Source of the DNA: Leptolyngbyaceae cyanobacterium
GTDB taxonomy: Bacteria; Cyanobacteriota; Cyanobacteriia; Phormidesmidales; Phormidesmidaceae
Reading direction: 5' to 3'
NCBI GenBank assembly: GCA_965263355.1
Contig: CBDHHL010000010.1
Coordinates: 1 to 25,574 of the forward strand
Length of the DNA: 25,574 nucleotides
The translations under genes and the position numbers were made by a program. Shown in pieces: positions 1 through 21,500 of the stretch (the first letter of the stretch is position 1; each line of letters opens with the position of its first letter). The notes beneath the pieces were generated by a model. That model was given only the letters and a program-made list of their open reading frames with translations. It searched no databases and was not told the DNA's origin.

Positions 1-486
1 TGTGAGCAGCTGCAACACGACGATCATTACACACAACAAGGACATAACACACACGGAAGAAGACACATATGAACACAACCCTTTCACGCTAGAAGCTATA
101 TACACATATACATATATACACATATTACATACACACGTTACATGACCTTTTACACAATAAAAGTCAGTCTTGACAACACGCTAAAACAGTCCACACGTTT
201 CATGCGTTATCGTATATATTCTTATTCATAAGTGCATTTATTCCGTGATATCTATCCGTCAACATAGGTAACTATATTCATAAGTATAAGTATATTAGGA
301 TACCAGCAAAGCGACGGTATCTACATATACGTGATTAGGTCTCTTGACCTATAGCTAGGATACAAGGCCTGATAAAGCGATATCTCCCTTTATCAGACCC
401 GACCTAAAGGCGCCGAGGTTACATAACGTCCTCACACGCCTTAAGTGATCATTACCCCTTCCTTAGGGAGATAGGGTAAGATCACA
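1..486 (+). repeat. 5' LTR
   Basis: Starts TGTGA and ends TCACA (482-486), followed by AA and the PBS. The 3' LTR is preceded by TT, so the unintegrated ends would read TTTGTGA...TCACAAA. Confidence 0.95.
156..198 (+). promoter_or_regulatory. LTR core promoter/poly(A) module: AATAAA, Inr TCAGTC, DPE-like element
   Basis: AATAAA 156-161; TCAGTC 164-169 fits the arthropod Inr TCAKTY (A166 = +1); G at +24 (189); ACACGT at +28..+33 (193-198) fits the DPE range DSWYVY. The 3' LTR AATAAA is at 15235-15240. Confidence 0.6.
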
Positions 487-501: not shown

Positions 502-1700
502 TTTAAACAACCCAGTGGTTTGTGATGGGTACCAAATTATTTTTTCATTTTCTGTTTTATGCTTTTAACATAGTCCTTGGACCCTACTTTTTAAATATGA
601 TTGTATTATATAAAGCTCATAAATATTGCTATAAGAGCTGTTTTACTGAACTAGGTTGAGTTAAAAGTGCCAAAAAATGAATTAAGCAAAAAAATTCAAT
701 TTCACTTTGAAGGCCAACAAAGCTGTTTAAAGTTAATATATTGGATTTTATCAATTATTTATGAAAAGTAATGATGTTAGAGAGTAAAAAAATTCAGATA
801 TCAGTGGATTGGTATTTTAAATTATTTTGAGTAATGTGGCCTCAACCTTGTACTTTTTAAAAATTGTAAAGGCAATTTTAAGCTATTCCTACTATTTTTA
901 CCTTAACTTTACGCAGCTGAGGCTTATATTTTTGAAATCTTGTATCAAGACAAAAGAGGTATGCATGTGCATAAAGTTTCAAGAAATTGCTTCAAATACA
1001 TTTTCAAAACGCGCCTATTTGTTGGCATTTTGGGGGCTTTACAGACCAAAATTGATATGTATGTATAGAAATGTGTTTAAAATTGAAAACGACCTACTAG
1101 GTTTGAATCAAAATCATGTAGTAGAACAATGCCTTAAAAAGACGAAAAACTTGAGATATTTGTTTTATCCAACTTTCCAACTTTTAGGAAAACAGTGGCT
1201 GGCAAACAAAAATCAAATTACCTTTTGAAGGTTGAAATTGATATTATTTGTAACAAAACATGTTTAAAATGTCAAATTATTGTATAATTTGGTATTTTTA
1301 GCTAAAATATTCCCAAATAGTTTAGATTTTAAATTGTCATTTTAAGCACTATGCCCTGCTCGTACAGACCATTATTTTCCCCTCAAATATTGCTCACGCT
1401 ACCACTTAACATTCCAATTTATTTTCCGTTAGCTACAAGCTAGCTTCTGTGAGAAAATACTGCATTTATAATGCATTTCCTCCCAACGGTCGCCCTATAT
1501 TTCTTAAATTAGGTGGTCATTCCTAGCTACTTCTTTTCATTTCCGCCATACTAAACTCCCCACGTATAGAGATCATCGGCATCCAACACGTGGTGTCAGC
1601 TAACGCAGGCAAACATCCGCTAGCATTACCCCACCATGTGCTTGTGTGCTGAGCCCCACTTTTGAGCCAGTGTGATGTAAAACAGGGCGCCAAATTTAAA

Positions 1701-2030: not shown

Positions 2031-2395
2031 CGCTGTGTGCGCGGCTGTGTGCCGAATGAGTGATGCTATGCATCTCCCTTGGGACCTCTAATGTCCCCAT
2101 CCTTGCTGGTCGCTGTCAGAAAACGGGTGCGCCCTGAAAAGTGGAACATGCCTATATGCATAGCTACAGCCCTCTTATCTAACACGGCCTACCTATGCAT
2201 CATAGTGCACGGTCTCTCTATACATAATGAGTAGTCACTGGCATCTTAACATTGCTTCTAACAATTAACATTCAGTCTCTCTGACCCCTCCAAACTGTTC
2301 ACACATCTTGACCACCCACCATGCAACTTCCAACCCTCCCTCTTGCTCTAATTATAGTAAGCGACCGTTAAGACATATGCTTCAGCACATTATAT

Positions 2396-2792: not shown

Positions 2793-4037
2793 ATGAACGA
2801 CCACGAGAGAGCCATTTACGCCGATAAGCTTGCCCTCAAGCAAGCTTATGCGCCGTTCCCTGTACTGTCCACCACGGATCCCACCGACTTCAAACGTTGG
2901 AGGGATTCCTTCACAGAGATCGCTATCCTCAACCGCACCAGGGAGCAGGACGCTGTCCGTGCTGCCAGGAACAACCTAAAGGGTGCGGCTTTGCAAAGAG
3001 CCAAGCAGATTGTTCCAATCATCACAGACGATGACCCCTATACAGGCACTAAACTGTCGCAGTACATGTTTTGCCTGTCCAAGGCCTTCTTGGATGATGC
3101 TTCCCCTGCCAGGAACCTCAAACTGTTCCAAACGGCAGCACAAAAGCATGGCGAAGATTTCCACGACTTGGCTGTGAGGATCAAGACCTACTACATGGAG
3201 GCTTATCCCACAGCCAACCACGATAACATAGAGGCAAACACCCTCGTGATTGACCGCTATGTGGATGCCATTAAGGACCTCAGCATTCAGCAGTCCTTAC
3301 TCTCTGTACAGAAGCCAACCATATCAGCCACGTCCCAGATTGCATACCGGTTGCGTCAATCCGTCTTGCAATCTTACATCAGCTGTGCACCAGACAAGAT
3401 CCTCGAGCTCCAGCGGTTGAGACCGTTCCTCTTCATCTCTCCTGAGGAAATTTCAGGCTTGCCAGGCCACCAAACCTACCAACAGGACCAGTCAATCAAC
3501 CAAATGGCTCCCCCACCAGCACCCCCACAGGCGCCAACTGCAGCAACCCCTGTAGCACCAGCAAGTGAACCTATTCCACCGGCACAGCCTCAGCCATCAA
3601 CATCTTTCAATATAGATCCAACCCAGCTGCAGGCAGCCCTCGGCATTCAAGCTTTCATGAATGCTGCTACCAGATCCCCTCAGAAGTCAACCTCTAGAGG
3701 CCAGGGAAGACCAAAGCCGCGCCAACAGTCGCGCACCGACCTCTCAACAGTCACCTGCTACAACTGTGGCACCAAGGGGCATCTGGCTAGGAATTGCACG
3801 AGGCCCAAACCCAATTCCTCAGTCAGGCTGGTCCTCCCCAGACGGTCAGGCAACCAGTCAGGCAGAAACTCCACTGCTAGAAAGTCTTTCCATAACAAGC
3901 TCAGACAGAGGATCAACGCCCTCTCAGCCGAGGACTTCGGCAGATTCGCTGAATCCATCAGCAATCTGGAATACACAAGTGATCCAGAAGCCTCGGACAT
4001 CACTGACGAGGAGTCCGACGCAGAGCAGGGAAACTAG
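2793..4037 (+). CDS. gag: Gag (capsid-like region, Pro/Gln linker, single CCHC zinc knuckle)
   Basis: 414-aa ORF; CYNCGTKGHLARNC (CX2CX4HX4C) flanked by basic residues; located between the leader and pol. Confidence 0.93.
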   Translation: MNDHERAIYADKLALKQAYAPFPVLSTTDPTDFKRWRDSFTEIAILNRTREQDAVRAARNNLKGAALQRAKQIVPIITDDDPYTGTKLSQYMFCLSKAFLDDASPARNLKLFQTAAQKHGEDFHDLAVRIKTYYMEAYPTANHDNIEANTLVIDRYVDAIKDLSIQQSLLSVQKPTISATSQIAYRLRQSVLQSYISCAPDKILELQRLRPFLFISPEEISGLPGHQTYQQDQSINQMAPPPAPPQAPTAATPVAPASEPIPPAQPQPSTSFNIDPTQLQAALGIQAFMNAATRSPQKSTSRGQGRPKPRQQSRTDLSTVTCYNCGTKGHLARNCTRPKPNSSVRLVLPRRSGNQSGRNSTARKSFHNKLRQRINALSAEDFGRFAESISNLEYTSDPEASDITDEESDAEQGN

Positions 4038-7000
4038 ATCAGCCGGGTTCCACCCGGCTACCTTCACCCGCAATAACCCAGATCCAGGACACCAATACAC
4101 ACGAATCTGACTCTGGTGCAGAAGATGATTCAGATAATGCTGATGAACAAGACACTCCCAACAATGACACAGAGGAAGACCCAGAGGCTACGGCCTTCAT
4201 CTCTCACTTGCAACAACTTCCACATGCCATTAGGCATAAGGAAACTGATACGGAGGCCCGTAAGGCTAAGACCTTCAGGAAGTTCTTACGCTGTTCAGTG
4301 GACGGCCACACTGTCAACGGCCTCGTGGACGGTGGCAACACCTGGCACTCATGCATCTCCGAAAACTTCATGAAAGTTTTAGGATGGAAGAAGACAGACC
4401 TCCTCCCCACCAAGTATTGCAATGTAAATACGGCCAAGAAGGGATCCTCTATCAAGTCCCTCGGACAGTTGCCAAGGCCCTTGACCCTAACTCCTTCCAA
4501 CGGAGGCGCACCTATACAGTTCCAGCCCATGGTCATGAGATCGCTGTCCACTTCACTCAATATCTCAGGACCTTTGCTCGAACTTTGCGGTATCGATCAC
4601 CTCACCTCCAAGGGTGCCCTCAATTGGAGAGGCAAAAGGATTCCACTCCTCAACAGACCCAGTCTCAAGGACTCAGCAGCTATTTCCATCCTCGAGACAG
4701 CCACACTTCCACCAAAGTCCCTCAAGTTAGTCCTAGGAGTCTGCCCAGACACAATCAACTCAACCTTTGCATCTGGCACTGTAGTGGTTGAAGGAGACAA
4801 GTTATTAGCAGAGGAAACCAACCTAGCACCTGCCAGGAATGCCCTCTGCACAATTACACCAGAGGGCTCCGTCTATGTGCCCCTTATCAACCCACATCAC
4901 TACCCCATCACCATCAAGAACGGTACCTTCTATGGGCGAGCTCACCTCACCAAGACCACGCTGCTCAGCAATGGCATCCAGTCCATATCCATGGTCTCAG
5001 ACTCAGCTGATGACTCAGGTTATGACAGCGAGGACGAGGATACCCCACAGGACATCAAATATTTTGAGAACCTCCCGGAGGACCCAGAAACAAACCCCTC
5101 TGACCAATACACCAATTGGTCTGATGACCAGAAGAAACAATGGTTCCTGGACACATACAAGTTAGACACCAGGCCCTGCTTCAAAACTCAACACCAGCTG
5201 AACCTGGCACTAGACACCCTCACCAAACACTTTGACCTTTTCTCCAAGGACGGCTCCTATGGCTTCAGTGACCTCATCACTCACAGAATCATAACGGACG
5301 ACGTCCAGCCTGTCAAGGACAAACTGCGACCCTGTAATCCACTGCTACAAGACTCACTCAAGGCACAACTAGAGAAATGGGACAAACATGGAGTCATCGA
5401 GCCCTCATACTCCCCATGGGCGGCCAATGTTGTCCCAGTTAAGAAGAAAGACAACTCCATCCGCTGGTGTATTGACTACCGCAAACTCAATGCGGTTACT
5501 AAGAAGGACAGCTTCCCCATGCCGAGCGTCTCGGAAACATTCAACGCTTTGGCAGGATCCTGTCTCTTCTCCAGTGTAGATATGGAAGGAGCATTCCACT
5601 CTGTGGCAATTCACCCAGCTGACAGGGAGAAGACAGCCTTTATCACACCATTCGGAACATTCCAGATGAAGAAACTGGGCTTTGGAGTTAGCAATGGCCC
5701 TGCAACATACTGCAGGCTCATACAGATGGTTCTCAGAGGAATCCCCTCATCCATTGCTTTGGGATTCCTCGACGACGGAATTATTCATTCCAATGATGTC
5801 GAGACCCATTGCCAAAACCTTGACAGAGTCTTCACAGCATATGCCAATGCTGGCCTCAAGATCAACCCAAAGAAGTGCTCATTATTCATGGAAGAAATCA
5901 ACTACCTGGGCCATACAATCAACCAGCACGGCGTCAGACCACCCGCAGAATACATCGACCAGATCAAAACATGGCCAGTCCCTGACTCTCCAAAGAAGAT
6001 ACGGCGCTTTCTGGGAATGGTCGGCTACTACAGAAACCATATCCCCGATTACGCTCTTCTCTCAGCCCCATGGACAGACGCCTTGAAGAAAGACAACGTC
6101 AAAAAGAAGATCAAGCCCACACCTGAGATGATTGCCAACTTTGACAAACTCAAAGAGAAACTCACCACGGCACCCATACTGGGCTTCCCATACTTCCATG
6201 GACCAAAGGCGGGCACCTTCATCCTCGACACAGACTTTTCCTGCAAACAGATCAGCGGAATCCTCTCACAGATCCAGGATGGACAGGAAGTGGTCATAGC
6301 TTACGGCTCCAAAAAGCTAGACAGTGGTCAACAAAACTACCCATCCACAAAAGGGGAGCTGTTCGCTGGTAAACACTTCATGCAGAAATATGCATTCTAC
6401 CTCAAGTGGTGCCAACAGTTCACCTGGAGGACCGATAACTCAGCCCTCCAATGGCTGAACAGTATGCAAGATCCGCCCAGTATCATCTACCGGTGGCGAG
6501 AAGTACTCAGGGACTTCAACTTCAAGGTGGTTCACAGGGCAGGAACCAAGCACACCAATGCTGACTGCTTATCGCGAGTGGAATTCGATCAACCACCACC
6601 CAAGAAACCTAAGCTCCAGACAGAAGACCAAAACACCCTGCCGGAGGACCACAAAACCCTGCCGGAGGACCACAATTCCCTGCCGGAGGACCACAATTCC
6701 CTGCCGGAGGACGCCACAGTCGCAGCCCTAGCCAATGATGCGGATTCACTGTCTTACAAACCACAGGAACCCACATGGCAAGACCTCCTCCAGCCCACAG
6801 CTCCACCTCCTCCAAACCAACTCATGAAGCGCATCACTGACCTCATTCCAGTCAGTATGGAGGACGAACAGCAGAAATGCTCCACCCTCAGTATGGTTCG
6901 CAAATGGATTAGAGGCATTGACAAACCAGATAGGCTCATGCAGCGATGCTTAACCCCAAACCAGAAGAAGTACTTGGGCACCCTCTCCTCCCTCAAACTC

Positions 7001-8575
7001 ATACAGAGAGGAAAGGAACATGTATTGTGCTCCCTGTATCTCAAAGATGACGGTACTGTCCCACACTACCAAATCTGCCTCCCAGAACACCTCTGGGTAC
7101 CGGTCATCCAAGCAGCACACACCCTCAATGGTCACATGTCGCATCAAAGTACCCTGGACCGTCTCAAAACCCTGGTGCATTTTCCCAACATGTCTAAAAT
7201 GGTTAAGCAAGTTATCCACTCGTGCCAACCATGCATAACCAAACACAAGACAGCCAAGCCCCAGAAGCACACGCTCATTTCCAGTATGCCTCCCTATCCG
7301 TTCCACACCATCCACGTGGACTTTGTTGGCCCCATTTACAAGTCATCGCAGGGGAACCAATACATATTCACGGTCAAAGACGCTTTCTCACGATGGGTGG
7401 AAGCATTTCCCATGAAGGAAGCCACAGCCAACAACGCAGCCTTCTGCCTGGAAACACAAGTATTCCCACGTTTCGGTCTTCCCCAAAGGATACACTCAGA
7501 TTGTGGTTCACAATTCACAAGTAACTTCTGGAAGCAGTTAGGAGAACAACTTAATATCAAGATCTCCTACACCACTCCATACCACCCCCAATCAAACGGG
7601 ATGGTTGAACGCTTCCACAGGGACCTTGGGAAGATGCTGGCCGCCACCAACAAAGGCGGCTCAGAAGACTGGGAACAAGGCCTTCCAGCCGCACTGATGG
7701 CTCTCAGATCCGCAAAATCCAGAACCACGAATCTGAGCCCTTACTCAATATTGTTTGGCCGGGAAATGTCTCTGCCACTAGACCTGATTTTCGCACTCCC
7801 TGATAAGGATACTGAACACATCACAGATGCTAAGGCTAGAGCCTTCACAATCAGGAAGAGAATCAACCGGGCCTATGAGTGTGCCATTATACACGCCCAT
7901 AGAGCTGTAGAGAGGCAGAGACGTTCTTACCACCAGGACAAACAATATTTCACCGTTGGCCAAAAGGTGTGGCTTTACACTCCCAAGACATTCGACAGAG
8001 GCCCAACCAAGTTGAAAACTAGATGGTCCGGTCCCTGGACAGTCTGCGCACCACCGGGCAATGAGATTATGATCCGCATCTCACCCATGGCAGGTTGGCA
8101 GTTCAAACATTCCATAGTGGTCGCCATTGACAGACTCAAGCTGTACACAGGAGAGAACCCCATAGAGCCTGACCCCTCTTCTGACCTACAAATGACCGGT
8201 GATGAATTTGCAGAGGAACTAGACCCTGCGGAGTTCGAGTGGAACAACGACCACTCTGTCGACCTTGAGACCTACAAACACCTCATGCCAGTGCTCACAG
8301 GGCCTTCACCCTACCCAGATGACACATTAGACGACGGTGATCAAGCACGACCTGGCACACCCCCTCAACATAGTGATATTCAAACAAACATTAGTCAAAC
8401 CAATACTAGTCCAACACAGACACAAGTGCAGTGCCCAAATAAAGCCCCTACACCAATTCAAACAGTGCTGACCAGTGTTACATATCCCATAGTTTCTGTA
8501 CAACTCTTTCCACCAATCATCAGCAATATGAAATATAAGCCAAAGATCCCATCCGCTTCCAGCCGGAAGAATTAG
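4007..8575 (+). CDS. pol: Pol polyprotein (protease, RT, RNase H, integrase), expressed as a Gag-Pol fusion
   Basis: PR-like LVDGGN; RT SPWAANVVPVKKKD..RWCIDYRKLN..FLDD; RNase H ILDTDFS..ELFA..TDNSAL..NADCLSR; IN zinc finger H..H..CQPC, core HVDFVGP..HSDCGSQF..SNGMVERF, GPY/F-like RWSGPW. Frame extended upstream to the stop at 4004-4006. Confidence 0.97.
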   Translation, partial: RGVRRRAGKLDQPGSTRLPSPAITQIQDTNTHESDSGAEDDSDNADEQDTPNNDTEEDPEATAFISHLQQLPHAIRHKETDTEARKAKTFRKFLRCSVDGHTVNGLVDGGNTWHSCISENFMKVLGWKKTDLLPTKYCNVNTAKKGSSIKSLGQLPRPLTLTPSNGGAPIQFQPMVMRSLSTSLNISGPLLELCGIDHLTSKGALNWRGKRIPLLNRPSLKDSAAISILETATLPPKSLKLVLGVCPDTINSTFASGTVVVEGDKLLAEETNLAPARNALCTITPEGSVYVPLINPHHYPITIKNGTFYGRAHLTKTTLLSNGIQSISMVSDSADDSGYDSEDEDTPQDIKYFENLPEDPETNPSDQYTNWSDDQKKQWFLDTYKLDTRPCFKTQHQLNLALDTLTKHFDLFSKDGSYGFSDLITHRIITDDVQPVKDKLRPCNPLLQDSLKAQLEKWDKHGVIEPSYSPWAANVVPVKKKDNSIRWCIDYRKLNAVTKKDSFPMPSVSETFNALAGSCLFSSVDMEGAFHSVAIHPADREKTAFITPFGTFQMKKLGFGVSNGPATYCRLIQMVLRGIPSSIALGFLDDGIIHSNDVETHCQNLDRVFTAYANAGLKINPKKCSLFMEEINYLGHTINQHGVRPPAEYIDQIKTWPVPDSPKKIRRFLGMVGYYRNHIPDYALLSAPWTDALKKDNVKKKIKPTPEMIANFDKLKEKLTTAPILGFPYFHGPKAGTFILDTDFSCKQISGILSQIQDGQEVVIAYGSKKLDSGQQNYPSTKGELFAGKHFMQKYAFYLKWCQQFTWRTDNSALQWLNSMQDPPSIIYRWREVLRDFNFKVVHRAGTKHTNADCLSRVEFDQPPPKKPKLQTEDQNTLPEDHKTLPEDHNSLPEDHNSLPEDATVAALANDADSLSYKPQEPTWQDLLQPTAPPPPNQLMKRITDLIPVSMEDEQQKCSTLSMVRKWIRGIDKPDRLMQRCLTPNQKKYLGTLSSLKLIQRGKEHVLCSLYLKDDGTVPHYQICLPEHLWVPVIQAAHTLNGHMSHQSTLDRLKTLVHFPNMSKMVKQVIHSCQPCITKHKTAKPQKHTLISSMPPYPFHTIHVDFVGPIYKSSQGNQYIFTVKDAFSRWVEAFPMKEATANNAAFCLETQVFPRFGLPQRIHSDCGSQFTSNFWKQLGEQLNIKISYTTPYHPQSNGMVERFHRDLGKMLAATNKGGSEDWEQGLPAALMALRSAKSRTTNLSPYSILFGREMSLPLDLIFALPDKDTEHITDAKARAFTIRKRINRAYECAIIHAHRAVERQRRSYHQDKQYFTVGQKVWLYTPKTFDRGPTKLKTRWSGPWTVCAPPGNEIMIRISPMAGWQFKHSIVVAIDRLKLYTGENPIEPDPSSDLQMTGDEFAEELDPAEFEWNNDHSVDLETYKHLMPVLTGPSPYPDDTLDDGDQARPGTPPQHSDIQTNISQTNTSPTQTQVQCPNKAPTPIQTVLTSVTYPIVSVQLFPPIISNMKYKPKIPSASSRKN
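4028..4059 (+). promoter_or_regulatory. Programmed -1 ribosomal frameshift signal (gag-pol)
   Basis: Slippery G GGA AAC (4028-4034) in the gag frame directly before the gag TAG; 6-nt spacer; 8-bp stem AGCCGGGT-TCC-ACCCGGCT (4041-4059). The pol frame is -1 and open from 4007 with no ATG before the protease motif. Confidence 0.9.
6623..6712 (+). repeat. In-frame 21-bp tandem repeat (~4 copies) in the RNase H-integrase linker
   Basis: CCCTGCCGGAGGACCACAA(AA/TT) units encoding (N/K)(T/S)LPEDH. Confidence 0.92.
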
Positions 8576-8711: not shown

Positions 8712-11700
8712 ATGGAGTTCAACCCCAATGCCACCGACTTCATCTCCGGAGTCTCCAACGCTGAGCTGGTCAACAACACCATGTTGACCCAGTCCACCTC
8801 CGTAGCCCCTACCACCTTCGAGCTCACCGCCGTGAGCTCCCCCATGGAGATGACCAGGCACGGGGCTGTAGCCGCCATGACGGCTGCAGGCTCGATCCAG
8901 CCGGACCCAGCCTTCCCGTCTCTGCAGGAGACCGTGACCCGTCACGCCAGTGCGGCTTTCGCTGCAGCCCAGGGATCAATCCAGCCAGATCCCACATTCC
9001 CCAGCCTGGATGATAAGCGGAACCAGCTTATCGCCAACGCGGACCCCCTCCTCCGCCCAGCCCACATGAGGACCCCAACCAAACCACCTCAGCAGCACGT
9101 GGTTAAGACAGCCTCCCAACTGGTCAGGGAGCTGTACACCAGCCAGCCAAGGGACCCCATGTCAACCCCACCCCACAAAAAGAGGGCCTTCGAGTACCAG
9201 GAGTCCGACTTCCCCTCACTCCATGACCTGACTACCAAAGGAGTGATGGAGAGGCCGGGGTACTCGACCATGAATCTCCAGAGAGCCAGAGCCAGGGACA
9301 CCGAGTCCAACTCAACCCAGTCCCCTCCCACAACGGTCCCTCACTCGCCGGCCCCTTACACACCCAGGGCAGCCAACTCAAACCTGACCCCCTTAGGTAC
9401 ACCCAACAAGAGACATTTGGGCAGCAGGGACTCCAACATCTCAATCGAGCCCCTCCACCAACCAACCAGGCTATCCAGGCCTCCCAGCAAAGCCTGCTAA
9501 GGACCTCGGAGGACCTCGGAAGGACGGCCGACACAACCGTCTCCAAGCTCTCCAACCTTAGTGACCTCGTTGCCAAGCAAATCCCGGAGGCGCTTACGCA
9601 ACTCACCAACCTCAACCAGGAAATTGCCAGCAAGACTAGCCAGCTGCACGATCTGGAACTCTCTCTGGCCACAACCAGATCGCCCAGGGCCTCTCACTCA
9701 AGATCAGGCTCCTTCTCTAGACCATCGAGGTCAAGGAACCCCTCCACGAGCTCCAAGACCCGCTCGCCCTCGGCCTCCCCAGCTACCCGCAGCCGCAACA
9801 AGTCCCTCCAGGAGGACTTAGACAGGTTGAGATCTCGCATCGAGGAGAAGACAACCAAAATCGATGCTCTCAACAGCCAAGAACGATCTCTCCAAGACAG
9901 GCTATCCAAGTCCAAGAAGGCCAAACAAGAAGCAGACTCCGCTGTCAACGTGGCTCGCCGTACCAAAATTGACATCGACACAGAGGTTAAGTCACTCAAG
10001 AAAGACAAGGAAAACCTCCTTAAGACCATCTCAGAGCTTCGATGCAAGGAGGCAGCCATGGAGTCCCGCAAGAAGGACGACGATGATGCCGCCGCTGCAG
10101 CCCAGGCGGTCAAGAAGGAAACAGAGAGTCTGAACAACAAGATCGCAGACCTCAAAGCGACCCTTGCCAGACTTGGCGCCGACAAGCGAAACTTGGAAAC
10201 CACCTTGGCGGCGCATAACCTCGAGGTTACCACACAGAGGTCAAACCTCCATGACCTCAACCAGCAGCTATCCCAAGCTGCAGTCAACTTGCGGAGGACC
10301 AAAGAAGATCACATGGCCGCCTCCAATGAACTCAATGCCATTAACGCTGCCATTACCGAGGCCAGAATGGCATACGAACAAGAACAAGAAGCCAGACAAC
10401 AGCAGATGACCACTACCGATAACCAGATTGCGGAACTACAACAACACCTCGTGGCCCTCCAGCAGCAATATGACACCCAAAAACAGCAGATGACCGCGCA
10501 GATCGACAGCCTCCGAGCTGACACTGACAAGCTTCAGCGCCAAAACAAAGAAGCAGCTGAGTCCCTCAGCGACACACTGTCCTCCAACTCGGCCTCCCTA
10601 CAAAATTCGGCCATTAAACAATCCAACGAGCTCAACGCTGAGTTGGAGGCAGTCAGAAACAAGGTGGGTGCAGCCAAAATGCGCCTCACCCAAGTCAATA
10701 AGGAGCTCACACAGGCCACCACCGACCTCCAGAAAGTGCAAGCCGACAAAAACTCAACAGAGGATGACCTAAGTATCACCAAGTCCAGACTGGACTTAGA
10801 GTGCAAGAAACTACACGACGTCCTCCATGCTCTCGACAGCACCAAGACCAGCCACGAAAATTCCAAGACGGCCCTCAACAAGGCCACCGCAGAATTAGAC
10901 AAGGTCACCAGAGCAGTGCAGGACAAAACTAAGGATCACCAGAACTTGACAGCCCAGGTCTCCAAAGCCAGATCCACCCTGCAAGAGCTCTCGTCAGACA
11001 TCACTATGGCCCGCAAAAACCCCATAGTGCCAGCACCACTCTCCCCCATACCAATGGCACACCCCTCCATGATGATGGAGTTTGATGATGCCACTAACTC
11101 ATGGGTTAGGCCGCAAGGACTGCCAGTCACACCAGGCAAGTCCATCCCCACACAGCCTCACTCAAGCAGCAACACGGTGACTGTCAACCCCACCATAACC
11201 ATTCAGGCCCCAGCTGCAAGAGATGGCGAGGCCAATATTGCCCACCAGGCCGCAGCTTTCTTTGCACAAGCGGGCAAAGATCTAACCACATATGTGAATC
11301 ATGAAATTACGCAGTCCCAGGCCCTCCTAGCCAATCAGATCCAGACCATGAATGCCACTATAGCAGACATGAAGACAACGGCACTTAAGCACTTTGAGGT
11401 CCAGAAGGCGACTTATGCGCAACATTTCAACGACCTTGAGGCCATGCAGGTCCAATTCAATCAGCAGAAAGATACAGAAGCTGCAATCCAAATCGGCCAA
11501 CTCAAAGAGACCTTGACAGAAGAATTTAAAGCGACAAGACAAGTTGACTTATTGGAACCACAAATTGCCAAGCAGCAAACCCAGATCACCCTCCTACAGA
11601 ATGCCCTCAAAGAAATAGACCGACTCCTCAAGGCCCAACAGAGCAAGAAACCAGGCAAAGGCAGTAAAAAGACTCAGCACATCGCAGAGAAACAGCTCCA

Positions 11701-12118
11701 GATAGCCTCACAACTGGAGCTTCAGGACATTGACGCCAATGCCACTGAGGATGACCTAGCCCGAAACCAGACCAAGCTGTACAGGACCATCAATAACAAG
11801 ATCGAAGACCAACATGCCAGGGTCACGAGAGTAATGGAGGATCTGCGCAACGACATCCACGATCCTAACACTCTATTCTCCATCGACCCGAAGACAGTGG
11901 CTCACAAAAGGCCTAGGGATATCTCTACAGACACCACAATAGGCAAGCCTCCTGCCAAGATTACACCAACAGTGGACACTTCAAGAGTACCACAAGAGCA
12001 TCTTGCCTCCGTGCAAGAAACATTATCCAAGTTACACCCACAAGAACTACAGCCCGGCACCCAACTCCAGGTGCCTCACGACACCAACCACACGGAGCCC
12101 ATACCGAATGACCAATAG
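8712..12118 (+). CDS. ORF3: ~1135-aa accessory protein (disordered motif-rich N-terminus plus long coiled coil), interrupted by a -1 frameshift near 9455-9465
   Basis: ORF 8712-9500 overlaps the frame of 9827-12118, which is open from 9227. Codon style and heptad character switch frame at CAC CAA|ACC AAC CAG; adding one A joins the two. Confidence 0.8.
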
Positions 12119-12260
12119 CAAACATGATTAAATAAACACCCACACCAACCATTAAATATACACACAATACCCATGTCACACAATACACACATCACACTAA
12201 AACACTTGAGCATGCCACTTCCACTAATACAAACCAAATAACCAACCAAATTGTTGTCAC

Positions 12261-12299
12261 ACTTTCTCTCAGCGCCCTCTAACCACACTATTCTTACAG
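12261..12299 (+). promoter_or_regulatory. Putative splice acceptor(s) for env
   Basis: ACTTTCTCTCAG (AG 12271-72) and CTAAC...TTCTTACAG (AG 12298-99), both phase 0 with env; the env frame opens at 12228 and has no N-terminal ATG. Confidence 0.6.
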
Positions 12300-15002
12300 C
12301 TTTCCACTGCCATTGTGGTCGCACAAGCATTCACTGCTTATGATTGCGCCCACAATAACATCACGGCCACCATCATTGACCTGACAGAACCGGACCACTG
12401 CGCCACCCTTGACCCAGGCTCCTACTCAGAGACCAATGTCACAGTGTCTGTGATATCCACTGCCAACAGGCTCACGATACAAGCAGTCCAATGCCGGGTA
12501 CTCCTCACCCAGAAGGCAGTTTATTGCGGCTCAGGCCATGCCACTTATGGCACCAGATTCCTGGAGATTGAGAAGCCCATCCACATCTCACCCTCCCACT
12601 GCACTGACCAGGATGGCCCCATCATAGCCGACGGCCAACCTTACCCAGCCAATACCTTGGACCATGGAGACAAATACTCCACCTCCTATCCACGAGGCAA
12701 CCTCGACCACGACCACTACTGCGAGACCGAGTCCTTCACCTACAATGGTGTCTCCTTCTCCTCCCACTACGTGGAACAGGTCGCCAGAACAACCAGAGCC
12801 TCCATTACAGGGACCTACAATGCCGCCTCGGGCACAGTTACCTTTGGCAACGTCGCCGTCCCCTTCGCCCAGGGCTACCTGCAAGACGTTACCTTGGGCA
12901 CCATCACTTGGAACACGACCAATGTCCAGTGCAAATCCACCACGGACATCATCTACAAGGGCAACGCCACCAAACACTCCCCCACGGACACGACGACCGG
13001 AGGCATCACGATCATCACCATTGGCAACTCCAACACCAAACAATACGGAGCCTTCACCTTGAAGCAACCCATTCCCCTTTGCGGCAAAGCTTGCTTCGCC
13101 ACACAGCTGGAGGACTTCACTATCTGTTTCACGGATACACCCGAGACCCACTTCGGCACAGACCCACTCCCTACGCTCGACTTCCACAACACGGAAAGGT
13201 TGGCTGGAATCCATACCTTCCAGGTCAACCACGCCCTCACCACCAGGTCCAATTTCCAGGCCATCAATAAGGCCCTTTGCGAAGTCGATGCCAAGACCAT
13301 TGCCAACAAGCGGCAACACATCCTGGCCACGGATTCATCCGCCGCTGTCATGGACCTCTACGGCCCAGGTTACCAGGTCACCAGGGCTGGGGCAGTAGCA
13401 TATGTGGCCAAATGCGTACCCATTGAGGTTAACATCTATGAAGAAGCCCACAATTGCACCCAGGAGCTCCCTGTCATTCTACCCGCGGAGTACAAAGACA
13501 GGATCCGCTACATGGACCCAGTCACCAAGATAGTCACCAGCTATCCCACCTACACGGTCTGTTCAGAGATCATCAGACCCATGATCAAGATCGGCAACAC
13601 CTGGTACGAATATGGCCCCATCCGCAACTCCTCCAACACGTTCAGACCGGCAACCATCACCCCCACGGTGATTACCTCCACGGTACTCAAGCTCAAGCTG
13701 TTCCACTTCGAGATAATACTTGCTGCCTCCATCTACACGGAACAGGACAAGGTCGAGTACAACCTGTATATCACACAGATCTCAGCCAGAGCGCCCATAA
13801 CCTCCTCCATGGTCAACAGCAAGCTTGACTACGCAGACAACCCACAAGCGGCTCTGACCTTCGATGACACCTCCTTCAAGTCCCTCAAATCGGCCTTCCT
13901 CTTCCTTGTTAACCCCATAGCCTACATCCTGGGAGACGTCGGTCAATACTACATGTGGTTCATGTCCTTCCTGCTCTTCTTAGTCATGCTAAAAGTAGCA
14001 GCCGAAGGCATTTACCACATCCTCCTCCAGTACTCAACCGATGGCTGCGGTACCTGGTGCCTCCTGGCATGGCTCCGCACTTGCTGGAACGTCGCCAAGG
14101 CACCTGTAGCCATCAATGATGCCGCCGTAGAACGCTTGGTGGACGACCACCCGACACAGGACCACATCCAAATTGAGATGACAGACATGGCACTCCCATC
14201 CAGAGACATTGAACAGGAAAGAAGAGACTTTGATCCCAGGGAGTTTGCAAGCCACAGACCTCCCTCCTACACGACGGCAACTGCACCTCCATTGACAAAC
14301 CTCGTCAGGTACCCCTCCCTGACGTCCCTCACCTCGGCACGCGCCCTCCAAGCAGCAGTCGACCCCATGCGTGCTGCTGTCACCACGGCAGCCACAACCC
14401 TGAGACGACTGCGCTCAGCCTCGCGGGAAACACTGCGACGCAGAGCAAATTCAGATACCGCCTCCAGAGCATGGTCAGCCACCAGAGACCTCGCCACAAG
14501 AGCACGCAGTGCCTCGGCCAGCACGGCGCGCAGCCTTTCCCGGGCCGCTTCAAGAGCCGCTTCGGAAAGGTCCTTCAGGAATTCCACGGGCTCACTGAAC
14601 GCAATCAGACGGTCATTCCGCCAGGGCTCCACCAGGGCCCTGACACAACTCAATGGATCCCTCAGATCCCTAGCAGCGGCCTCCGATCAGACAATCAACA
14701 CGAGCAGGCGCGCAGCCAGACACGCCTTACACCAGATTGAGGACGATGCCCGCAGTACATTCTCCAAAGCGAGCTCCGCAGCCTCCCGCGCCTCCCGCAA
14801 GGCCCGGAAGGTTGCTTTCGCTGCAGCCAGACGAGTCAGAACATCATCCACCCTGGCTTACCGGCTAATCCAACATCCCCAGGACGCTAACGTCCTGACT
14901 CTCGCACCTGATGATGCACGTGCCCCGCTCCTGGACGCCGAACCACCTAGGAGACCCCCACGCCGCTCTAGACGTGATCGTCACGAGGACACTAGACACT
15001 AA
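12273..15002 (+). CDS. env: Env-like glycoprotein, chuvirus-G/herpesvirus-gB-like (class III fusion type); true start unresolved
   Basis: Signal-like RPLTTLFLQLSTAIVVAQA then FTAYDC; Cys pattern YDC..C..QC..CG..H..C; PGYQVTRAGAVAYVAKCVPIEV..NCTQELPV..YMDPVTKI..C..WY; SIYT; several N-x-S/T sequons; hydrophobic TM region ~13890-14090. Confidence 0.85.
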   Translation, partial: RPLTTLFLQLSTAIVVAQAFTAYDCAHNNITATIIDLTEPDHCATLDPGSYSETNVTVSVISTANRLTIQAVQCRVLLTQKAVYCGSGHATYGTRFLEIEKPIHISPSHCTDQDGPIIADGQPYPANTLDHGDKYSTSYPRGNLDHDHYCETESFTYNGVSFSSHYVEQVARTTRASITGTYNAASGTVTFGNVAVPFAQGYLQDVTLGTITWNTTNVQCKSTTDIIYKGNATKHSPTDTTTGGITIITIGNSNTKQYGAFTLKQPIPLCGKACFATQLEDFTICFTDTPETHFGTDPLPTLDFHNTERLAGIHTFQVNHALTTRSNFQAINKALCEVDAKTIANKRQHILATDSSAAVMDLYGPGYQVTRAGAVAYVAKCVPIEVNIYEEAHNCTQELPVILPAEYKDRIRYMDPVTKIVTSYPTYTVCSEIIRPMIKIGNTWYEYGPIRNSSNTFRPATITPTVITSTVLKLKLFHFEIILAASIYTEQDKVEYNLYITQISARAPITSSMVNSKLDYADNPQAALTFDDTSFKSLKSAFLFLVNPIAYILGDVGQYYMWFMSFLLFLVMLKVAAEGIYHILLQYSTDGCGTWCLLAWLRTCWNVAKAPVAINDAAVERLVDDHPTQDHIQIEMTDMALPSRDIEQERRDFDPREFASHRPPSYTTATAPPLTNLVRYPSLTSLTSARALQAAVDPMRAAVTTAATTLRRLRSASRETLRRRANSDTASRAWSATRDLATRARSASASTARSLSRAASRAASERSFRNSTGSLNAIRRSFRQGSTRALTQLNGSLRSLAAASDQTINTSRRAARHALHQIEDDARSTFSKASSAASRASRKARKVAFAAARRVRTSSTLAYRLIQHPQDANVLTLAPDDARAPLLDAEPPRRPPRRSRRDRHEDTRH

Positions 15003-15079: not shown

Positions 15080-15554
15080 TGTGAGCAGCTGCAACACGAC
15101 GATCATTACACACAACAAGGACATAACACACACGGAAGAAGACACATATGAACACAACCCTTTCACGCTGGAAGCTATATACACATATACATATATACAC
15201 ATATTACATACACACGTTACATGACCTTTTACACAATAAAAGTCAGTCTTGACAACACGCTAAAACAGTTCACACGTTTCATGCGTTATCGTATATATTC
15301 TTATTCATAAGTGCATTTATTCCGTGATATCTATCCGTCAACATAGGTAACTATATTCATAAGTATAAGTATATTAGGATACCAGTAAAGCGATGGTATC
15401 TACATATACGTGATTAGGTCTCTTGACCTATAGCTAGGATACAAGGCCTGATAAAGCGATATCTCCCTTTATCAGACCCGACCTAAAGGCGCCGAGGTTA
15501 CATAACGTCCTCACACGCCTTAAGTGATCATTACCCCTTCCTTAGGGAGATAGG
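15080..15554 (+). repeat. 3' LTR, lacking the terminal 11 bp
   Basis: Matches 1-475 except four transitions (LTR positions 91, 191, 307, 315); GTAAGATCACA is absent. Confidence 0.95.
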
Positions 15555-18024
15555 CTTTAAGCTTGCCTATATGATGCCTCGGGTTTCCCTAAGGCAAGGT
15601 TATCAGGTTCATATAGGATTCAAATGATTTTAGGTTTCAAGTAGCTAATAATATTATCTCATATGAAACCTCTATTTGATAAGTTTTTTGTCTTTGGTGT
15701 CTAAATGAAACCTTTGGGCTCAAAACTAGTGATAAAGGGTTCCCATGTCTCGTCAGGCTACGTCCAAGAAAGCAATCACTTTTAAAATGTGTTACAAATG
15801 ACCTCTTTTCCGTCAAAAAATACGAAGAAGGAAACCATTTTTCAACGAATTTATGGTCGGACTAGAAATTGACGGCCTTTCCAGCCTTGGAGACAGAATG
15901 GGGGCAAACGACCAAAAAGCCTTTTTTTTCCTCCAAGGTCCTTGATTTTCAAGGGAAGCGGAATTGAAAGCAGGCGATATATTTTTCTACCATAAAAAAC
16001 TCGATTTCCCTGCGATTCGCCATGCTAGTGCAAGTAAGAAAAGGCAGCCGCCCTTCAATTTCCTGTTTCTCTATTTTCTCTTGCAGCACACAATTCGGAC
16101 CAAGAAGTATACTACACCTCGTTTAATGGGTGTTGCCATTTCGGCCCCGTGATAAATCAGTCTGTCTATCTTAGGGACATGGGCTACGTAGGGGGGCAAC
16201 GCCTGCGCGCAGCTCTAACTCGATAATTAACTGTGAAATAAGAGTTGCCTTTGGTGCCCCGAGCAAAAGAGAGGCATCAGATCTCGTATTTGAGTCCTGT
16301 TTTTGGACGCCCCGAATGAGGGCCAAAAATCATCAACTTGGGGGGTCTCGAAACCCAAAAGATCGGTCCCTGTGTGAACAATTGCATTATGGGAGAACCA
16401 ACTATAGAAACAAGGACTCTAATTTAGTCAAACTTGGCGCCTTTACCTTATTGGGAAAATCTAAAAACTATATAAAATGATTTATGTATTTAATTTGACT
16501 ACCAACCAAGAATTGTAATGTAACTATTGTAACAGGTAAGTTGGGGTTCACAGGTGGCCCGTGAGTTTGTTGTTATTTACTGGCTTGCTGAAATTGATAG
16601 GTCTCACTTTAACCAAGTCCACTGATAAAGTTGTTACATATCTTGAGCCATAACTTCTTCAGATAAACCTTTGTCCCTCTCTTTATGAGAGCAATAACTC
16701 AGGGTAACTAACGAAAGAAGAGGTGTTTGGCTTTTCATTTTGCACATACCCGATACATAAGCTGTATAGGTAATTAAACCATGCAGAATTCTTTGAACTA
16801 GACTTCCTTTTACATTTCCAACCAATGGAAAAGAAATGATCTGGGAAAGACAAAGGGAAAAAAACAAGCAAAGATGTCAATCAATTGAGGAAGAACTTTT
16901 GACATTATCTGAAACCAAAGATCTCACCCAAAACTGAAGAAGAGAAAAGTGAGGCCTTATCTGACAAAAATCACTTTCTCAAGGGAAAACGTGAAAAACT
17001 CCGATTTCTTCGTTAATGAAGTCCCCAGCAAGGTCATTATCACTAACTACATACCTTTGTAACATTGTTTAGCAGTAGTGAAACACCCTAAGACTCATTA
17101 AGGATTATTTATTATGTATGCCCAGAGGGCCGAACTATTTGCCAATTTGACCAAAAGGCGGCCAAACTTTGATTTTCCTCAGCAGATATGCCCCGCTTTT
17201 TCCGCCCTCAGCCCCAAATGGAGGAACACCCAGAAATAATGAGGAGCGCTCAAAAAATCTGGAGCCGTCAGTCAGTGAGACATGATTGGGTGGAAATACG
17301 AAAAAAATCGACGAGGGAAGAGAGGGTGGTAACACGTGCCATGACTTTTGTAATTGTTGGAAACATGCGGGTCTATTAAAATGAGTCAAAATTTTTCATC
17401 ACAAGTTAAAAATATAAACAATGTGTATTATAATTACCGGCGACCATACTTATAAAACACACATACTAGATGGCTTGCGTTTGACAATTTCTCTGTTATT
17501 AGAAAGCACATCATGAAGTACGTACGTCATGAAAATATGGCTTAAAGTGGGTCGAAAATTGAAATTCGAAACAAACCATAAAAGGGTCACGTGTGGAACT
17601 TGACAGCTTTGGAGATTTGAGTTTCGTCTCACGAAAGCTACAACAAAATTTTGACAAAGTGCTCCACATTCGTCGGAAATTGTTTTGGTGTACATCCACG
17701 AGGTCCATGAATTAACTCTCCGTGTCCTCAGGTGCGGTATGATATGCAGGCTCTCCGCGTCCCTATGGTAGTATGGTAGTCTCCGTGTTCCAGTAGTGAC
17801 TGCGTGGGCCCAGCCGATCCCAGGGGTCGTGCCCCTGCTCAAGGGCGTCACTTTGTTCTGCCAGACAGACGAAATGTAGTAAAAACAGAATAAAAGTACT
17901 TTCAATATGCTTTCCTATAATCAAGGCTTCCACCACATTAATGACCAAAGTGGCATCTTTATTATCTCTCAGCATAGGGTAATTAAGAGCTTAATTAAAT
18001 AGAGAGTAAACCAGGCTTACTCTA

Positions 18025-18589: not shown

Positions 18590-21500
18590 ATGAAAGCAGT
18601 TGTGTTTCACGTTTTTACTTTTATCCAAATCATGGTATTAACTATTGCTCTGATGTATTATACTGGGAAATTTAAAGAAATTTCTAAACAGTCTTATTTT
18701 CACAATACCATAAAATCAGTGGTTCAGGAAAGCAAAACAAGGCTGAATCCGTTTCAGCGGAGTCAAAGAATCCAAGAATTACTTCAGTACAAAACCAGTG
18801 AAAGGAACATTGGGAAAACCTCACAGCTCGTAAAGAAAAATGTGATTTTCTTAGGTATCCTTTTATCCTTGAAAAATTAAAGAAACTATTGTTTCAACTT
18901 CCATTTTAATGGTGCAAAATGAATATCATTGGGGGAAAGTATACTTTTTACTACATTCAGCTTTTGATGACCTCAGACCTCAATTGAATTGCTACCATGA
19001 TAAACCTAATGAACAGTTCCACAAAATGCATACACCAAATTTTGACAGATTGGCAAGAAGAAGCATTGTCTTTGAAAAAGCATATAATCAGGTAGAGATA
19101 GTGGTAATTTGGCCCAAGGTTCCAAGTCCTATGATTTGTGTTAATTTTGATTGTTCCCAATGCTAGTAATGTTAACTTAAACCAATCCAAAATGGCTGAT
19201 AACTAATATAAAATATAATTTGTACCAATAGTGCCCAATATGCGCCCCAAGTAGAGTGTCAACATTAACCTCAAGGCACCCCGACAGCACAAGAGTTTAC
19301 CAGTTTGACAAATACTTCAGGTACACGCCGCCTTTACTATAATAAAGTAATGTACTGTAGGATGTCATGAGTTAAAACAACTTCTCTCTGTCAAAATTCT
19401 TAGATGCATAATTGAAGTATACCTTGTACAATTTTAGAGAATTCATGAACCCCAATGTGGTCACAATTCCTCAATATTTTAAAGAGAATGGGTACAATTC
19501 TATAAATGTTGGAAAAATCTACCATGATAGCAATGCAAGCTCCAGGTATGTTTTAGGGTTTCAAAAAAAAAGTAAAATAATTATTTATCTGTCATGAGAA
19601 GGCTTGGTGATCCACCGTCATGGTCAAAGAAACCTTTAAGAGGTATCCGAGGAGAATCATACCTGCAGCCCAGTCACAAAGTTAAGGTACGGGTACGTAA
19701 ACGTACCATATTTCCTCATCATATCATTATTTCGTAACATTTTAATTATAATTTTGTGAAGTCTGCTAATTACACTTTTGACGCAATAAATCTATTTTTG
19801 GGGGAAAAATGGCCACGTGAATTCAGTTTAAGCGATGTTTTTGTTTATGCATTCATCGAAATTACACATTCATTCTGCCATCCAACACAATTGTTGGTGC
19901 ATTTATTTTTGTTATATATAGTAACATTGTGATGAATTGATTTTTTTCATTATTTGAAACATCCGTTCCTATATTGCAATGAGTGGGGCTATTGTATTCT
20001 AACTAAAACATTTATGTATGATGTAGATAAATCCTACAGGTCGGAAACTCCTATGGAGGTCCTTCATCCAGAAGCCAAATGAAGAATGGGACCAAGTACA
20101 GAGCTGGGATGAAACCATTGCTACACAAGTAATGAAATAAAATATTTACATTTCCTTGGATAATTTAGAAAATTTGGATCATTCAACAAGGCAATCAATG
20201 TTCTCAGGGAAATGGTTGACAATTATGAAGATGAGAATAAGAACTTTTTCCTAGGGCTAGGATTTAGAGCGCCCCATATTCCATACCGTGCTGCTCAGAA
20301 ATATTTTGACATGTATCCTTTCGAAAGTAAGTTTAAGGGTATTAACTGCTTCTTCAGAAAAGAACATACACTAATGGGCTGTATTCTCGAAATCCAAGAT
20401 TTTTATTCGCTGCTCTGGATAAAGGTTTGAAAAGTGTAAATTGTTCCAATCATCCAAAATTTATCCAAAAAGTGCGAAAAAGCTGTTTTTTATCCAAGGA
20501 AAAAAATCCCACCAGTAATAGCAGTATATGTAATAAAAAATACAAAAATTCAAACCTGCTTTTTGAATTGAATAATGTGTGGATAAAAAGTAACTTTTTA
20601 CTCATGAAAGATAAACTCCTACTTAATAAAGGCAAAAATTATTCAAAAGTGTAAATTGATCCGTTGATTCCCACTAGTGTAATGCTAACAATAACGAAGA
20701 CTGTTAAATTGAAGCTCTCCACTAAGATCATTACGATTTCAGATGTACCAGCCCCTGCAAGAAACTTTGCAGCCTCTGATTTTCCTGAAATTGCATGGAA
20801 TCAATTATCTGACTTCAAGAAAAGTCAAGAGTGGCAGGATAATTTGTTGACCAATCCAAAGGCTTCACAATTCAACCAATCAGCTTCAAATACATTTTAC
20901 AGGAAAATGAGACAAGGTGCTCAGTAATTTCCAAATGTGTACTAACTCATAGTAAACTGGCGTCCCATTCAGCGCAATTTTAGTGTCATTCCGTGCCGTG
21001 CTTACTAACATTTCATTGTAGATTTAATTGCAATTAATGAAATTAATTCGTTGAGTTCAATTTTAGGGCTATAAATCTTGCCGGAGACCAAACTTCGTGA
21101 GGAAAAGGGGGTTATGCTAAGGGCAACTATGATTGCCTCAAAATTAGTCATATCTGACTGTGCCTCTGACCCACGCTATAAGCGTTAAAATAGAAACAGC
21201 AATATGCAAGAACAACGGCTATAAATTAAATCGCATAATATTATATCATGAGTTAGAGTCATGAGTCATTTCTGGGCAATGTTCATGAAACAAAAATTAA
21301 AAAATAAACATATTTAGTGGGTGGGGGTAGTCGTAAAAATGAAATTTTGCAAACAAAATTAATAAGAAAAAGACTACATTCAGCGCGGGGCTCAATGACT
21401 TTTAAAATGAATTTGAAATTTCAGCGCATTTGGTGCCCAATTAATTTAATTACGCTGAATGGGACACCAGTGTATGTTAGATCAAATAGCAAACTGTTTC

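What the first reader, a model, noticed from the sequence alone, without database searches (positions are those of the whole stretch)
12315..14090. Chuvirus-G/gB-like class III fusogen in a Gypsy element
The cysteine spacing and motifs (AYDC, QC..CG..H, LCE helix, PGY...AG.V.YV.KC.P.EV, C.QELPV, P.TKI, WY, IYT) match my recollection of chuviral glycoproteins rather than baculovirus F, and I see no furin site plus fusion peptide. The ORF is intact, suggesting potential cell-to-cell infectivity.
Basis: partly seen in the sequence, partly recalled or inferred. Interest (0 to 1): 0.75.

Follow-up and report, generated by a model that had tools for sequence, protein, structure and literature searches.

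The report
Herpes-like envelope gene in jumping gene
A young retrovirus-like jumping gene carries an envelope gene predicted to fold like the chuvirus and herpesvirus fusion proteins, a known pairing, but here the gene lacks its own start codon and is likely completed by splicing, and its tail carries motifs that likely recruit the cell's budding machinery.

Summary
Confirmed, but largely known. The ORF hits Pfam Monjiviricetes_fusion (177 bits). Its model (pLDDT 87) matches chu-like virus G and herpes gB. It sits in a 15.5-kb Ty3/Gypsy element with 99.2% identical LTRs. Chary and Hayashi (PMC13524379) already report chuvirus-like gB-type env beside gypsy pol in 114 arthropod elements.

Corrections: the frame runs 12228-15002, not to 14090, and has no ATG before 13350. 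A 12-codon hydrophobic leader mini-exon (2321-2356) likely supplies the start and half the signal peptide across a 9.9-kb intron, as in ZAM/Beagle F-type env; no RNA data confirm this. An extra ORF lies between pol and env (1,135 aa in other copies, frameshifted here).

PPxY, P[ST]AP or YPxL motifs occur in 58 of 129 relatives' tails (shuffles about 11-13). This Env has PPSY and YPSL; 0 of 5 Gags has any. The scan noted this before in a flatworm element.

Against infectivity: the predicted first fusion loop is unusually polar and a conserved cysteine pair is lost. Verdict: new variant of a known kind.

The parts
1..486 (+). 5' LTR (TG...CA); candidate splice donor at its 3' end (476)
   Evidence: 471 of 475 bases identical to the 3' LTR; donor ranks 2 of 506 GT sites by intron-side score
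489..500 (+). Primer-binding site, likely tRNA-Leu
   Evidence: The same 12-mer is annotated Leu in 9 of 11 rows of PMC13524379 supplementary file 1
515..1368 (.). 854-nt AT-rich insertion in the leader, absent from other copies
   Evidence: Joint 514->1369 in contigs of runs X1 and X3; GC drop
2276..2356 (+). Predicted leader mini-exon: acceptor at 2275, ATG at 2321 in CCACC context, 12 mostly hydrophobic codons, donor at 2357; inferred first half of the Env signal peptide
   Evidence: Only candidate of 436 upstream ATG-to-GT pairs with phase 0, positive donor score and hydrophobic end; island 2346-2371 kept in diverged contigs (table 5)
2793..4037 (+). gag (414 aa, one CCHC knuckle); no PPxY, P[ST]AP or YPxL motif
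4028..4059 (+). Predicted -1 frameshift signal: slippery heptamer at 4028-4034 followed by a stem-loop
   Evidence: fold z -2.35, 4 of 200 shuffles fold as well
4007..8575 (+). pol, PR-RT-RNase H-integrase, Ty3/Gypsy order
   Evidence: Pfam RVT_1, RT_RNaseH, Integrase_H2C2, rve; protease placement read from the sequence
8712..12118 (+). Accessory ORF, predicted coiled-coil; one 1,135-aa frame in other copies, frameshifted near 9,460 in this one; candidate acceptor at 8602
   Evidence: P0006, P0022, P0026; indel rows; no Pfam family at E 0.01; acceptor
12279..12299 (+). Predicted branch point and splice acceptor, phase 0 to env
12300..12329 (+). Inferred second half of the signal peptide (10 codons), likely cleavage before 12330
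   Evidence: relatives' mature starts align here
12330..13880 (+). Predicted class III (gB/chuvirus-G-type) ectodomain; 14 Cys, 6 sequons; predicted fusion loops near 12525-12551 and 12696-12722
13947..14030 (+). Single predicted transmembrane helix, followed by a Cys-bearing amphipathic segment (14043-14087)
   Evidence: Hydropathy 1.9 for the helix against 1.08 for the second segment
14259..14321 (+). PPSY (14259-14270) and YPSL (14310-14321), late-domain-type motifs in the predicted cytoplasmic tail
14370..14840 (+). Arg/Ala/Ser-rich basic tail segment, predicted amphipathic helix (net +25 over 190 aa)
   Evidence: low-confidence single-sequence model, helical
15080..15554 (+). 3' LTR, lacking the last 11 nt, where a high-copy repeat begins

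Best explanation
This is the envelope gene of a young, multi-copy Ty3/Gypsy element, predicted to encode a gB/chuvirus-G-type class III fusogen, likely translated from a spliced RNA whose leader mini-exon supplies the missing start, and likely using its long tail to recruit ESCRT so that particles would bud and enter other cells. Shown: family, element context, lack of an in-frame ATG, constraint on the frame, tail motifs and their family-wide enrichment. Predicted: fold and membrane topology. Inferred: splicing (about 0.75), ESCRT use (about 0.5), retained fusion activity (about 0.55). The basic tail helix may bind capsid or RNA as a matrix stand-in; that step is speculative.
For: Family and fold: PF24664 177 bits; model pLDDT 87.3, pTM 0.64. 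Foldseek: all 35 listed PDB rows are herpesvirus gB entries, and the BFVD top hit is a chu-like virus G at E 7e-36. VIA-align ranks 1-9 are all class III (gB Z 8.4/8.3, rhabdovirus G 6.4, thogotovirus Gp 5.6). 14 of 16 family cysteines are kept. Youth and constraint: LTRs 471/475; 14 env members on 11 contigs, 5 of them full-length; 8 of 8 listed env variants synonymous against about 28% expected. Splicing: 1 of 436 ATG-to-GT pairs qualifies, giving 12+10 = 22 residues. Diverged contigs keep a 24-nt island over the donor and show single-base indels at 12232-12275, upstream of the acceptor. Two abundant contigs span the region without gaps, so the missing ATG is not an assembly error. ZAM/Beagle env is spliced from such an exon (PMC12992720). 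Tail: 58 of 129 tails carry a motif against 10.6±2.9 (500 shuffles) and 12-13 in local shuffles (0 of 400 reach 58). The canonical order ranks first among all orderings of each motif. Gags: 0 of 5.
Against: No RNA run holds the element, so splicing is unobserved. One diverged copy (P0017) has an in-frame upstream ATG. The splice scores come from a simple hand-made matrix; 14 branch-point/acceptor sites pass on the + strand and 6 on the - strand. Island joints rest on 23-24-nt sides, which the tool flags as unreliable. Two predicted fusion-loop tip positions are polar or small here but hydrophobic in 88-90% of 94 relatives, and a Cys pair kept in 95% of them is lost. TM-scores are low (gB about 0.3, chu-like G about 0.5). 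71 of 129 tails have no motif. Only 2 of 6 distinct gypsy-linked loci have one, and four loci have none in either Gag or Env tail. The window's Pol holds a PTAP. The variant sample is small and limited to the best-supported rows the tool printed.
Confidence: 0.6

Rival explanations
1. Env is normally started by its own upstream ATG near 12212, as in relatives. The window's subfamily has lost that frame and spreads with a silent env.
For: Copy P0017 reads from an upstream ATG into env. All 7 pol-linked relatives have their own env ATG.
Against: Gap-free abundant contigs share the window's layout, and the indels cluster only before the acceptor. A third, about 86% identical contig has a stop in the env frame just upstream (table 7). 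Listed env variants are all synonymous. A unique phase-0 hydrophobic mini-exon exists.
Confidence: 0.17
2. The protein is expressed but is no longer an autonomous fusogen. It would act as an attachment, budding or receptor-blocking protein, or need a partner such as the accessory ORF product.
For: Polar first loop and lost disulfide pair, the loop fixed in all 9 of 12 compared copies that span it; long branch in the env tree; herpes gB itself needs partners (PMC13524379 section 11).
Against: The whole five-domain scaffold and 14 cysteines are kept; an aromatic residue remains in each loop, and histidines might support low-pH triggering (inference).
Confidence: 0.15
3. The tail motifs are ordinary sorting signals: PPxY for Nedd4-driven turnover and YxxL for endocytosis. 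They would limit surface Env and play no part in budding.
For: YPSL also fits YxxPhi, which is enriched too (92 against 62). 55% of tails lack a late-domain motif.
Against: P[ST]AP (TSG101 type) is enriched tenfold, and 12 of 129 tails combine two motif classes, as viral late domains do (PMC7995964).
Confidence: 0.3
4. A chuvirus glycoprotein gene was recently integrated or captured, as an endogenous viral element next to an unrelated retrotransposon.
For: Best viral structural matches are chu-like G; such elements often lie beside LTR fragments (PMC10084718).
Against: It lies inside paired LTRs with the element's composition. Closer relatives are gypsy-linked envs. No N or L gene was found among the element's ORFs.
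Confidence: 0.03

Closest known systems
HSV/gB-type errantiviruses (Ty3/gypsy with chuvirus-like Env; Chary and Hayashi 2026, PMC13524379)
   Same: gag-pol-env in LTRs, class III ectodomain with conserved cysteines, furin site not required, multi-copy, Leu-type primer site.
   Different: Env here has no ATG of its own, a 320-aa tail and a polar first loop. Their main text has no hit for splicing, accessory ORFs or late domains.
Drosophila ZAM/Beagle errantiviruses (Senti et al. 2025, PMC12992720)
   Same: Env is spliced from a short peptide-coding exon upstream of gag.
   Different: Their Env is F-type (class I) with a furin site and fusion peptide; here it is class III and the splice is only predicted.
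Chuvirus / Monjiviricetes glycoprotein G (Pfam PF24664)
   Same: Same Pfam family and predicted fold.
   Different: 16-21% identity; encoded by negative-strand RNA viruses with N and L genes.
BEL/Pao Anakin elements (Dezordi et al. 2020; search listing and citing passages only)
   Same: Chuvirus-like G in an LTR retrotransposon.
   Different: BEL/Pao rather than Gypsy backbone.
Herpesvirus gB, rhabdovirus G, thogotovirus Gp, baculovirus GP64
   Same: Class III architecture.
   Different: 8-18% identity; no sequence match in PDB.
Retroviral Gag late domains and bluetongue virus NS3 (PMC7995964)
   Same: PPxY, PT/SAP and YPxL motifs that recruit Nedd4, TSG101 and ALIX.
   Different: Here they lie in the fusogen's tail and are absent from the five Gags checked.

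Membership tests
Ty3/Gypsy (Metaviridae) | Paired LTRs, tRNA primer site, gag with zinc knuckle | tested here: met
Ty3/Gypsy (Metaviridae) | pol order PR-RT-RH-IN with gypsy-type RNase H and H2C2 integrase domains | tested here: met
   Pfam; 35-41% identity over more than 1,300 aa to pol of five gag-pol-env loci
Ty3/Gypsy (Metaviridae) | Placement among named gypsy lineages by RT tree or GyDB profiles | not testable with these tools
   No named reference sequences available; integrase tree of 7 unnamed elements only
HSV/gB-type errantivirus | Class III ectodomain fold | tested here: met
HSV/gB-type errantivirus | Conserved cysteine bridges | tested here: met
   14 of 16 family cysteines kept, one pair lost together; the paper's C1/C2 classes could not be assigned because figures are not held
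HSV/gB-type errantivirus | Hydrophobic fusion loop(s) in domain I | tested here: inconclusive
   Loops assigned from secondary structure and conservation; one aromatic kept, two tip positions polar or small against 88-90% hydrophobic in relatives
HSV/gB-type errantivirus | Signal peptide and C-terminal membrane anchor | tested here: inconclusive
   Anchor present; a full signal peptide exists only under the predicted splice
HSV/gB-type errantivirus | Trimer | not tested
   No trimer prediction was obtained; a 50-residue central helix is in the monomer model
HSV/gB-type errantivirus | Membrane fusion or infectivity | not testable with these tools
   Needs bench work; also unknown for the published elements
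F-type Env (baculovirus F, Drosophila gypsy) | Furin site followed by a fusion peptide, class I fold | tested here: not met
   No R-x-K/R-R site in the ectodomain; class III matches
Jingchuvirales virus or its endogenous fragment | Linked N and L (RdRp) genes | tested here: not met
   Pfam on the element's five ORFs finds RT and integrase, no N or L family
BEL/Pao (Anakin) | BEL-type Gag, protease and RNase H domains | tested here: not met
   No BEL/Pao Pfam family at E 0.1; gypsy-type domains instead

The most novel reading that the evidence does not exclude
gB-type errantiviruses bud by an Env-driven route. The fusogen's cytoplasmic tail, not Gag, carries the ESCRT late domains, and in this lineage also a long basic helix that would stand in for a matrix protein. 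This lineage has also become a complex, retrovirus-like element, with separately spliced RNAs for Gag, an accessory coiled-coil protein and an Env with a split signal peptide, evolved independently of ZAM/Beagle.
Probability: 0.35. Interest if true: 0.72.

Novelty: new variant of a known kind. Interest (0 to 1): 0.42.

Why it matters
The class III Env in a Gypsy element is already in print. How such elements leave and enter cells is stated to be unknown (PMC13524379). A family-wide excess of late-domain motifs in the Env tail gives a specific, cheap test of how they bud. The wide pol-env gap and ATG-less env show a layout that gap-limited screens would tend to miss, so the census of enveloped elements may be too low.

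Tried and rejected
No genome is held for this window, so copies were read from protein clusters and run contigs. No RNA holder was listed; this says nothing on expression. Sequence searches of PDB found nothing significant. Viral contigs: 0 of 39 pattern matches were relatives. A profile search for named or chuviral relatives returned only the element's own family, and 20 looked-up relatives carried no useful names, so no chuvirus-rooted tree was possible. The Env tree (163 of 165 rows; P0165 and P0176 left out) is star-like, with the window on a long branch in no supported group. Integrase and Env trees of 7 linked elements share only the L001+L003 pair; inconclusive on co-divergence. No trimer prediction was obtained. 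The single-sequence tail model is low-confidence (pLDDT 52). The Atlas was searched only through homologue P0033 (PF24664 clusters at 0.96). GTG 12315 as start: rejected, no signal peptide. Acceptor 12272: disfavoured, no branch point within 45 nt by one scan, and indels overlap it. A second membrane-spanning segment: unlikely here (1.08), not excluded in 28 of 93 relatives. An idea that host introns use GA donors (copepod-like) was dropped because canonical GT donors fit on re-reading; the host is unidentified.

Full report
OBSERVATION. The protein matches Pfam PF24664 Monjiviricetes_fusion at 177.4 bits, cut-off 27, over residues 3-598. There is no R-x-K/R-R site in the first 560 residues. 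The coordinates are off. The frame is open from 12228 to 15002, so about 300 more residues follow 14090. It has no ATG until 13350, and the GTG at 12315 lies five codons before the likely mature start at 12330.

CONTEXT. Env lies in a 15.5-kb element: LTR 1-486, primer site 489-500, gag 2793-4037, pol to 8575 entered by a predicted -1 frameshift, an accessory ORF, env, and LTR 15080-15554. The LTRs match at 471 of 475 bases. Pol has RT, RNase H and integrase in Ty3/Gypsy order. The env cluster has 14 members on 11 contigs, five of them uninterrupted and full-length; the rest are broken or cut. All 8 single-base env variants printed by the read tool are synonymous, against about 28% expected; for pol it is 12 of 13 and for the accessory ORF 21 of 29. 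Those tables show only the best-supported rows. The accessory ORF is one 1,135-aa frame in three other copies. The window is frameshifted near 9,460, where nearly all contig depth in three runs differs from it by an indel, so the break is private to this copy or an assembly error. That search returned only three proteins, 65-94% identical. The host is an unidentified animal-like genome; a sulfatase-like gene lies downstream.

FOLD. A model from 95 aligned sequences has mean pLDDT 87.3 and pTM 0.64, with long beta hairpins and a 50-residue central helix. All 35 listed Foldseek PDB rows are herpesvirus gB entries (best E 7e-13, TM about 0.3, high rmsd). BFVD ranks chu-like virus glycoproteins first (E 7e-36, TM about 0.5, 16-21% identity). 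VIA-align against 48,161 chains puts class III fusogens at ranks 1-9: gB Z 8.4 (rmsd 4.2, 162 aligned), 8.3 and 8.3, rhabdovirus G 6.4, thogotovirus Gp 5.6. Fourteen of 16 family cysteines are kept. Two departures count against simple fusion competence. A cysteine pair present in 95% of 94 relatives is lost, and two tip positions of the predicted first fusion loop are polar or small where 88-90% of relatives are hydrophobic. The loop is the same in the 9 of 12 compared copies that span it, so it is a lineage trait, not decay of this copy.

RELATIVES. 848 cluster representatives match at E up to 0.001; the best 150, apart from two own-family hits, are 23-31% identical. Of 26 metagenome loci, seven have gypsy pol directly upstream, with env starting at its own ATG 217-400 nt after the pol stop (L009 and L011 are near-identical). 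Here the gap is 3,652 nt. Three loci (L021, L023, L026) carry the glycoprotein at the end of a long polyprotein that looks like BEL-type Gag-protease by recalled motifs; Pfam did not confirm that. Trees place the window's Env on a long branch with no supported neighbour. No chuviral sequence could be fetched to root them.

HOW ENV IS LIKELY MADE. I scored every ATG-opened frame upstream of env that reaches a GT within 30 codons. Of 436 pairs, 152 are phase 0 and 7 of those have a positive donor score. Only ATG 2321 to donor 2357 ends in a hydrophobic run (2.94) with a purine at -3; its donor ranks 3 of 506 on the intron side. A branch point at 12279 and acceptor at 12299 enter env in phase 0. 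Twelve plus ten residues give a 22-residue signal peptide. In support, diverged contigs retain a 24-nt island (2346-2371) over that donor within an otherwise unalignable leader (short sides, weak). Single-base indels cluster at 12232-12275 in diverged contigs, while a diverged contig aligns for 437 nt from 12258 with 63 substitutions and no gap and has a stop in the env frame just upstream. Two abundant contigs span the region without gaps. Acceptors at 2275, 2413 and 8602 are each followed first by the ATG of the mini-exon, gag and the accessory ORF, suggesting several spliced RNAs from the donor at 476. However, 14 such sites pass the scan on the + strand and 6 on the - strand. Against: copy P0017 has an in-frame upstream ATG, the scoring matrix is crude, and no RNA run is available. 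The arrangement has a precedent: ZAM/Beagle env is spliced from a short peptide-coding exon upstream of gag (PMC12992720, passages).

THE TAIL. After one predicted membrane helix the tail is about 320 aa; the relatives' median is 143, and 2 of 129 are as long. It holds PPSY and YPSL 17 residues apart, then a basic, predicted amphipathic helix. Of 150 relatives examined, 21 were dropped for lack of a tail call. Of the other 129, 28 have PPxY, 22 P[ST]AP, 20 YPx[LI], and 58 at least one; shuffles give 4.4, 2.2, 4.2 and 10.6 (maximum 24 of 500). Local 12- and 20-residue shuffles give 13.2 and 12.2, none of 400 reaching 58. The canonical order ranks first among all orderings of each motif, narrowly for P[ST]AP (22 against 20), and only 1 of 8,256 tail pairs shares three or more 7-mers. 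Density is 3.4 per 1,000 aa in tails against 0.4 in Gag and Pol; 0 of 5 Gags has a motif, but 4 occur in 5 Pol frames, including a PTAP in the window's. Limits: 71 of 129 tails have none; only 2 of 6 distinct gypsy-linked loci have one, and four loci have none in Gag or Env tail. These motifs recruit Nedd4, TSG101 and ALIX and sit in Gag in retroviruses (PMC7995964, passages).

WHAT IS KNOWN. Chary and Hayashi (PMC13524379; abstract, passages, sections 5 part 1, 6 part 2, 11 and 14, part 1 and searches of the supplements; figures and GitHub sequences not seen) found the chuvirus-like glycoprotein next to gypsy POL in 114 arthropod elements and classify it as HSV/gB-type. They note the furin site is not always conserved and that the entry mechanism is unknown. 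Their main text has no hit for 'splic', 'accessory', 'coiled', 'late domain', 'ESCRT', 'PPxY' or 'budding'; their unseen figures may bear on this. PMC10084718 (passages) saw no clear Gypsy capture. PMC6431247 (passages) notes that ORFs can be captured between pol and env and describes mononegavirus-like env in Burro. Dezordi 2020 was seen as a listing only. Four searches (listings only) showed no paper on late domains in retroelement Env tails; the library lacks most subscription journals.

VERDICT. This element is a variant: an extra gene between pol and env, an ATG-less env likely completed by a leader mini-exon, a long tail with late-domain-type motifs, and an atypical fusion loop. Interest 0.42.

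Noticed in passing
window 8712-12118: Accessory ORF of 1,135 aa in other copies, predicted coiled-coil, matched only by three proteins 65-94% identical; frameshifted near 9,460 here.
   Followed up: partly
window 515-1368: 854-nt AT-rich insertion in the leader, at higher depth than the element, so probably a separate repeat; no obvious terminal inverted repeat in the end sequences printed.
   Followed up: partly
window 15555-15757: Very high-copy repeat (depth above 1,000 in two runs) starting exactly where the 3' LTR stops, 11 nt short of its end.
   Followed up: no
   Followed up: no
window 2693-2786 and 6616-6720: A 43-nt tandem duplication just before gag (absent in some contigs) and a 21-nt in-frame repeat in pol between RNase H and integrase.
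   Followed up: no
window 4337 region (pol N-terminus): The likely protease active-site motif reads DGG rather than D-S/T-G, and the RT motif reads FLDD.
   Followed up: no
L021:329-5293, L023:3570-7289, L026:3164-7282: Single 1,200-1,650-aa ORFs joining a Gag/protease-like N-terminus (recalled BEL-type motifs) to the same glycoprotein, with no RT in the frame; apparently tandem copies.
   Followed up: partly
L002:1-7318, L014: Env followed or preceded by a pol-like ORF with a degenerate RT and no Pfam hit.
   Followed up: partly
L001:5453-6331, L012:10439-11290: A second gag begins right after env and a spacer, suggesting tandem or circular LTR forms.
   Followed up: no
window about 19400-22600 (+): Host sulfatase-like gene with short introns (PDB sulfatase hit E 6e-4); a 38-nt inverted repeat at 21691-21805 lies in one intron.
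   Followed up: partly
window 22829-23700 (-): Probable further host gene fragment on the minus strand (123-aa ORF).
   Followed up: no
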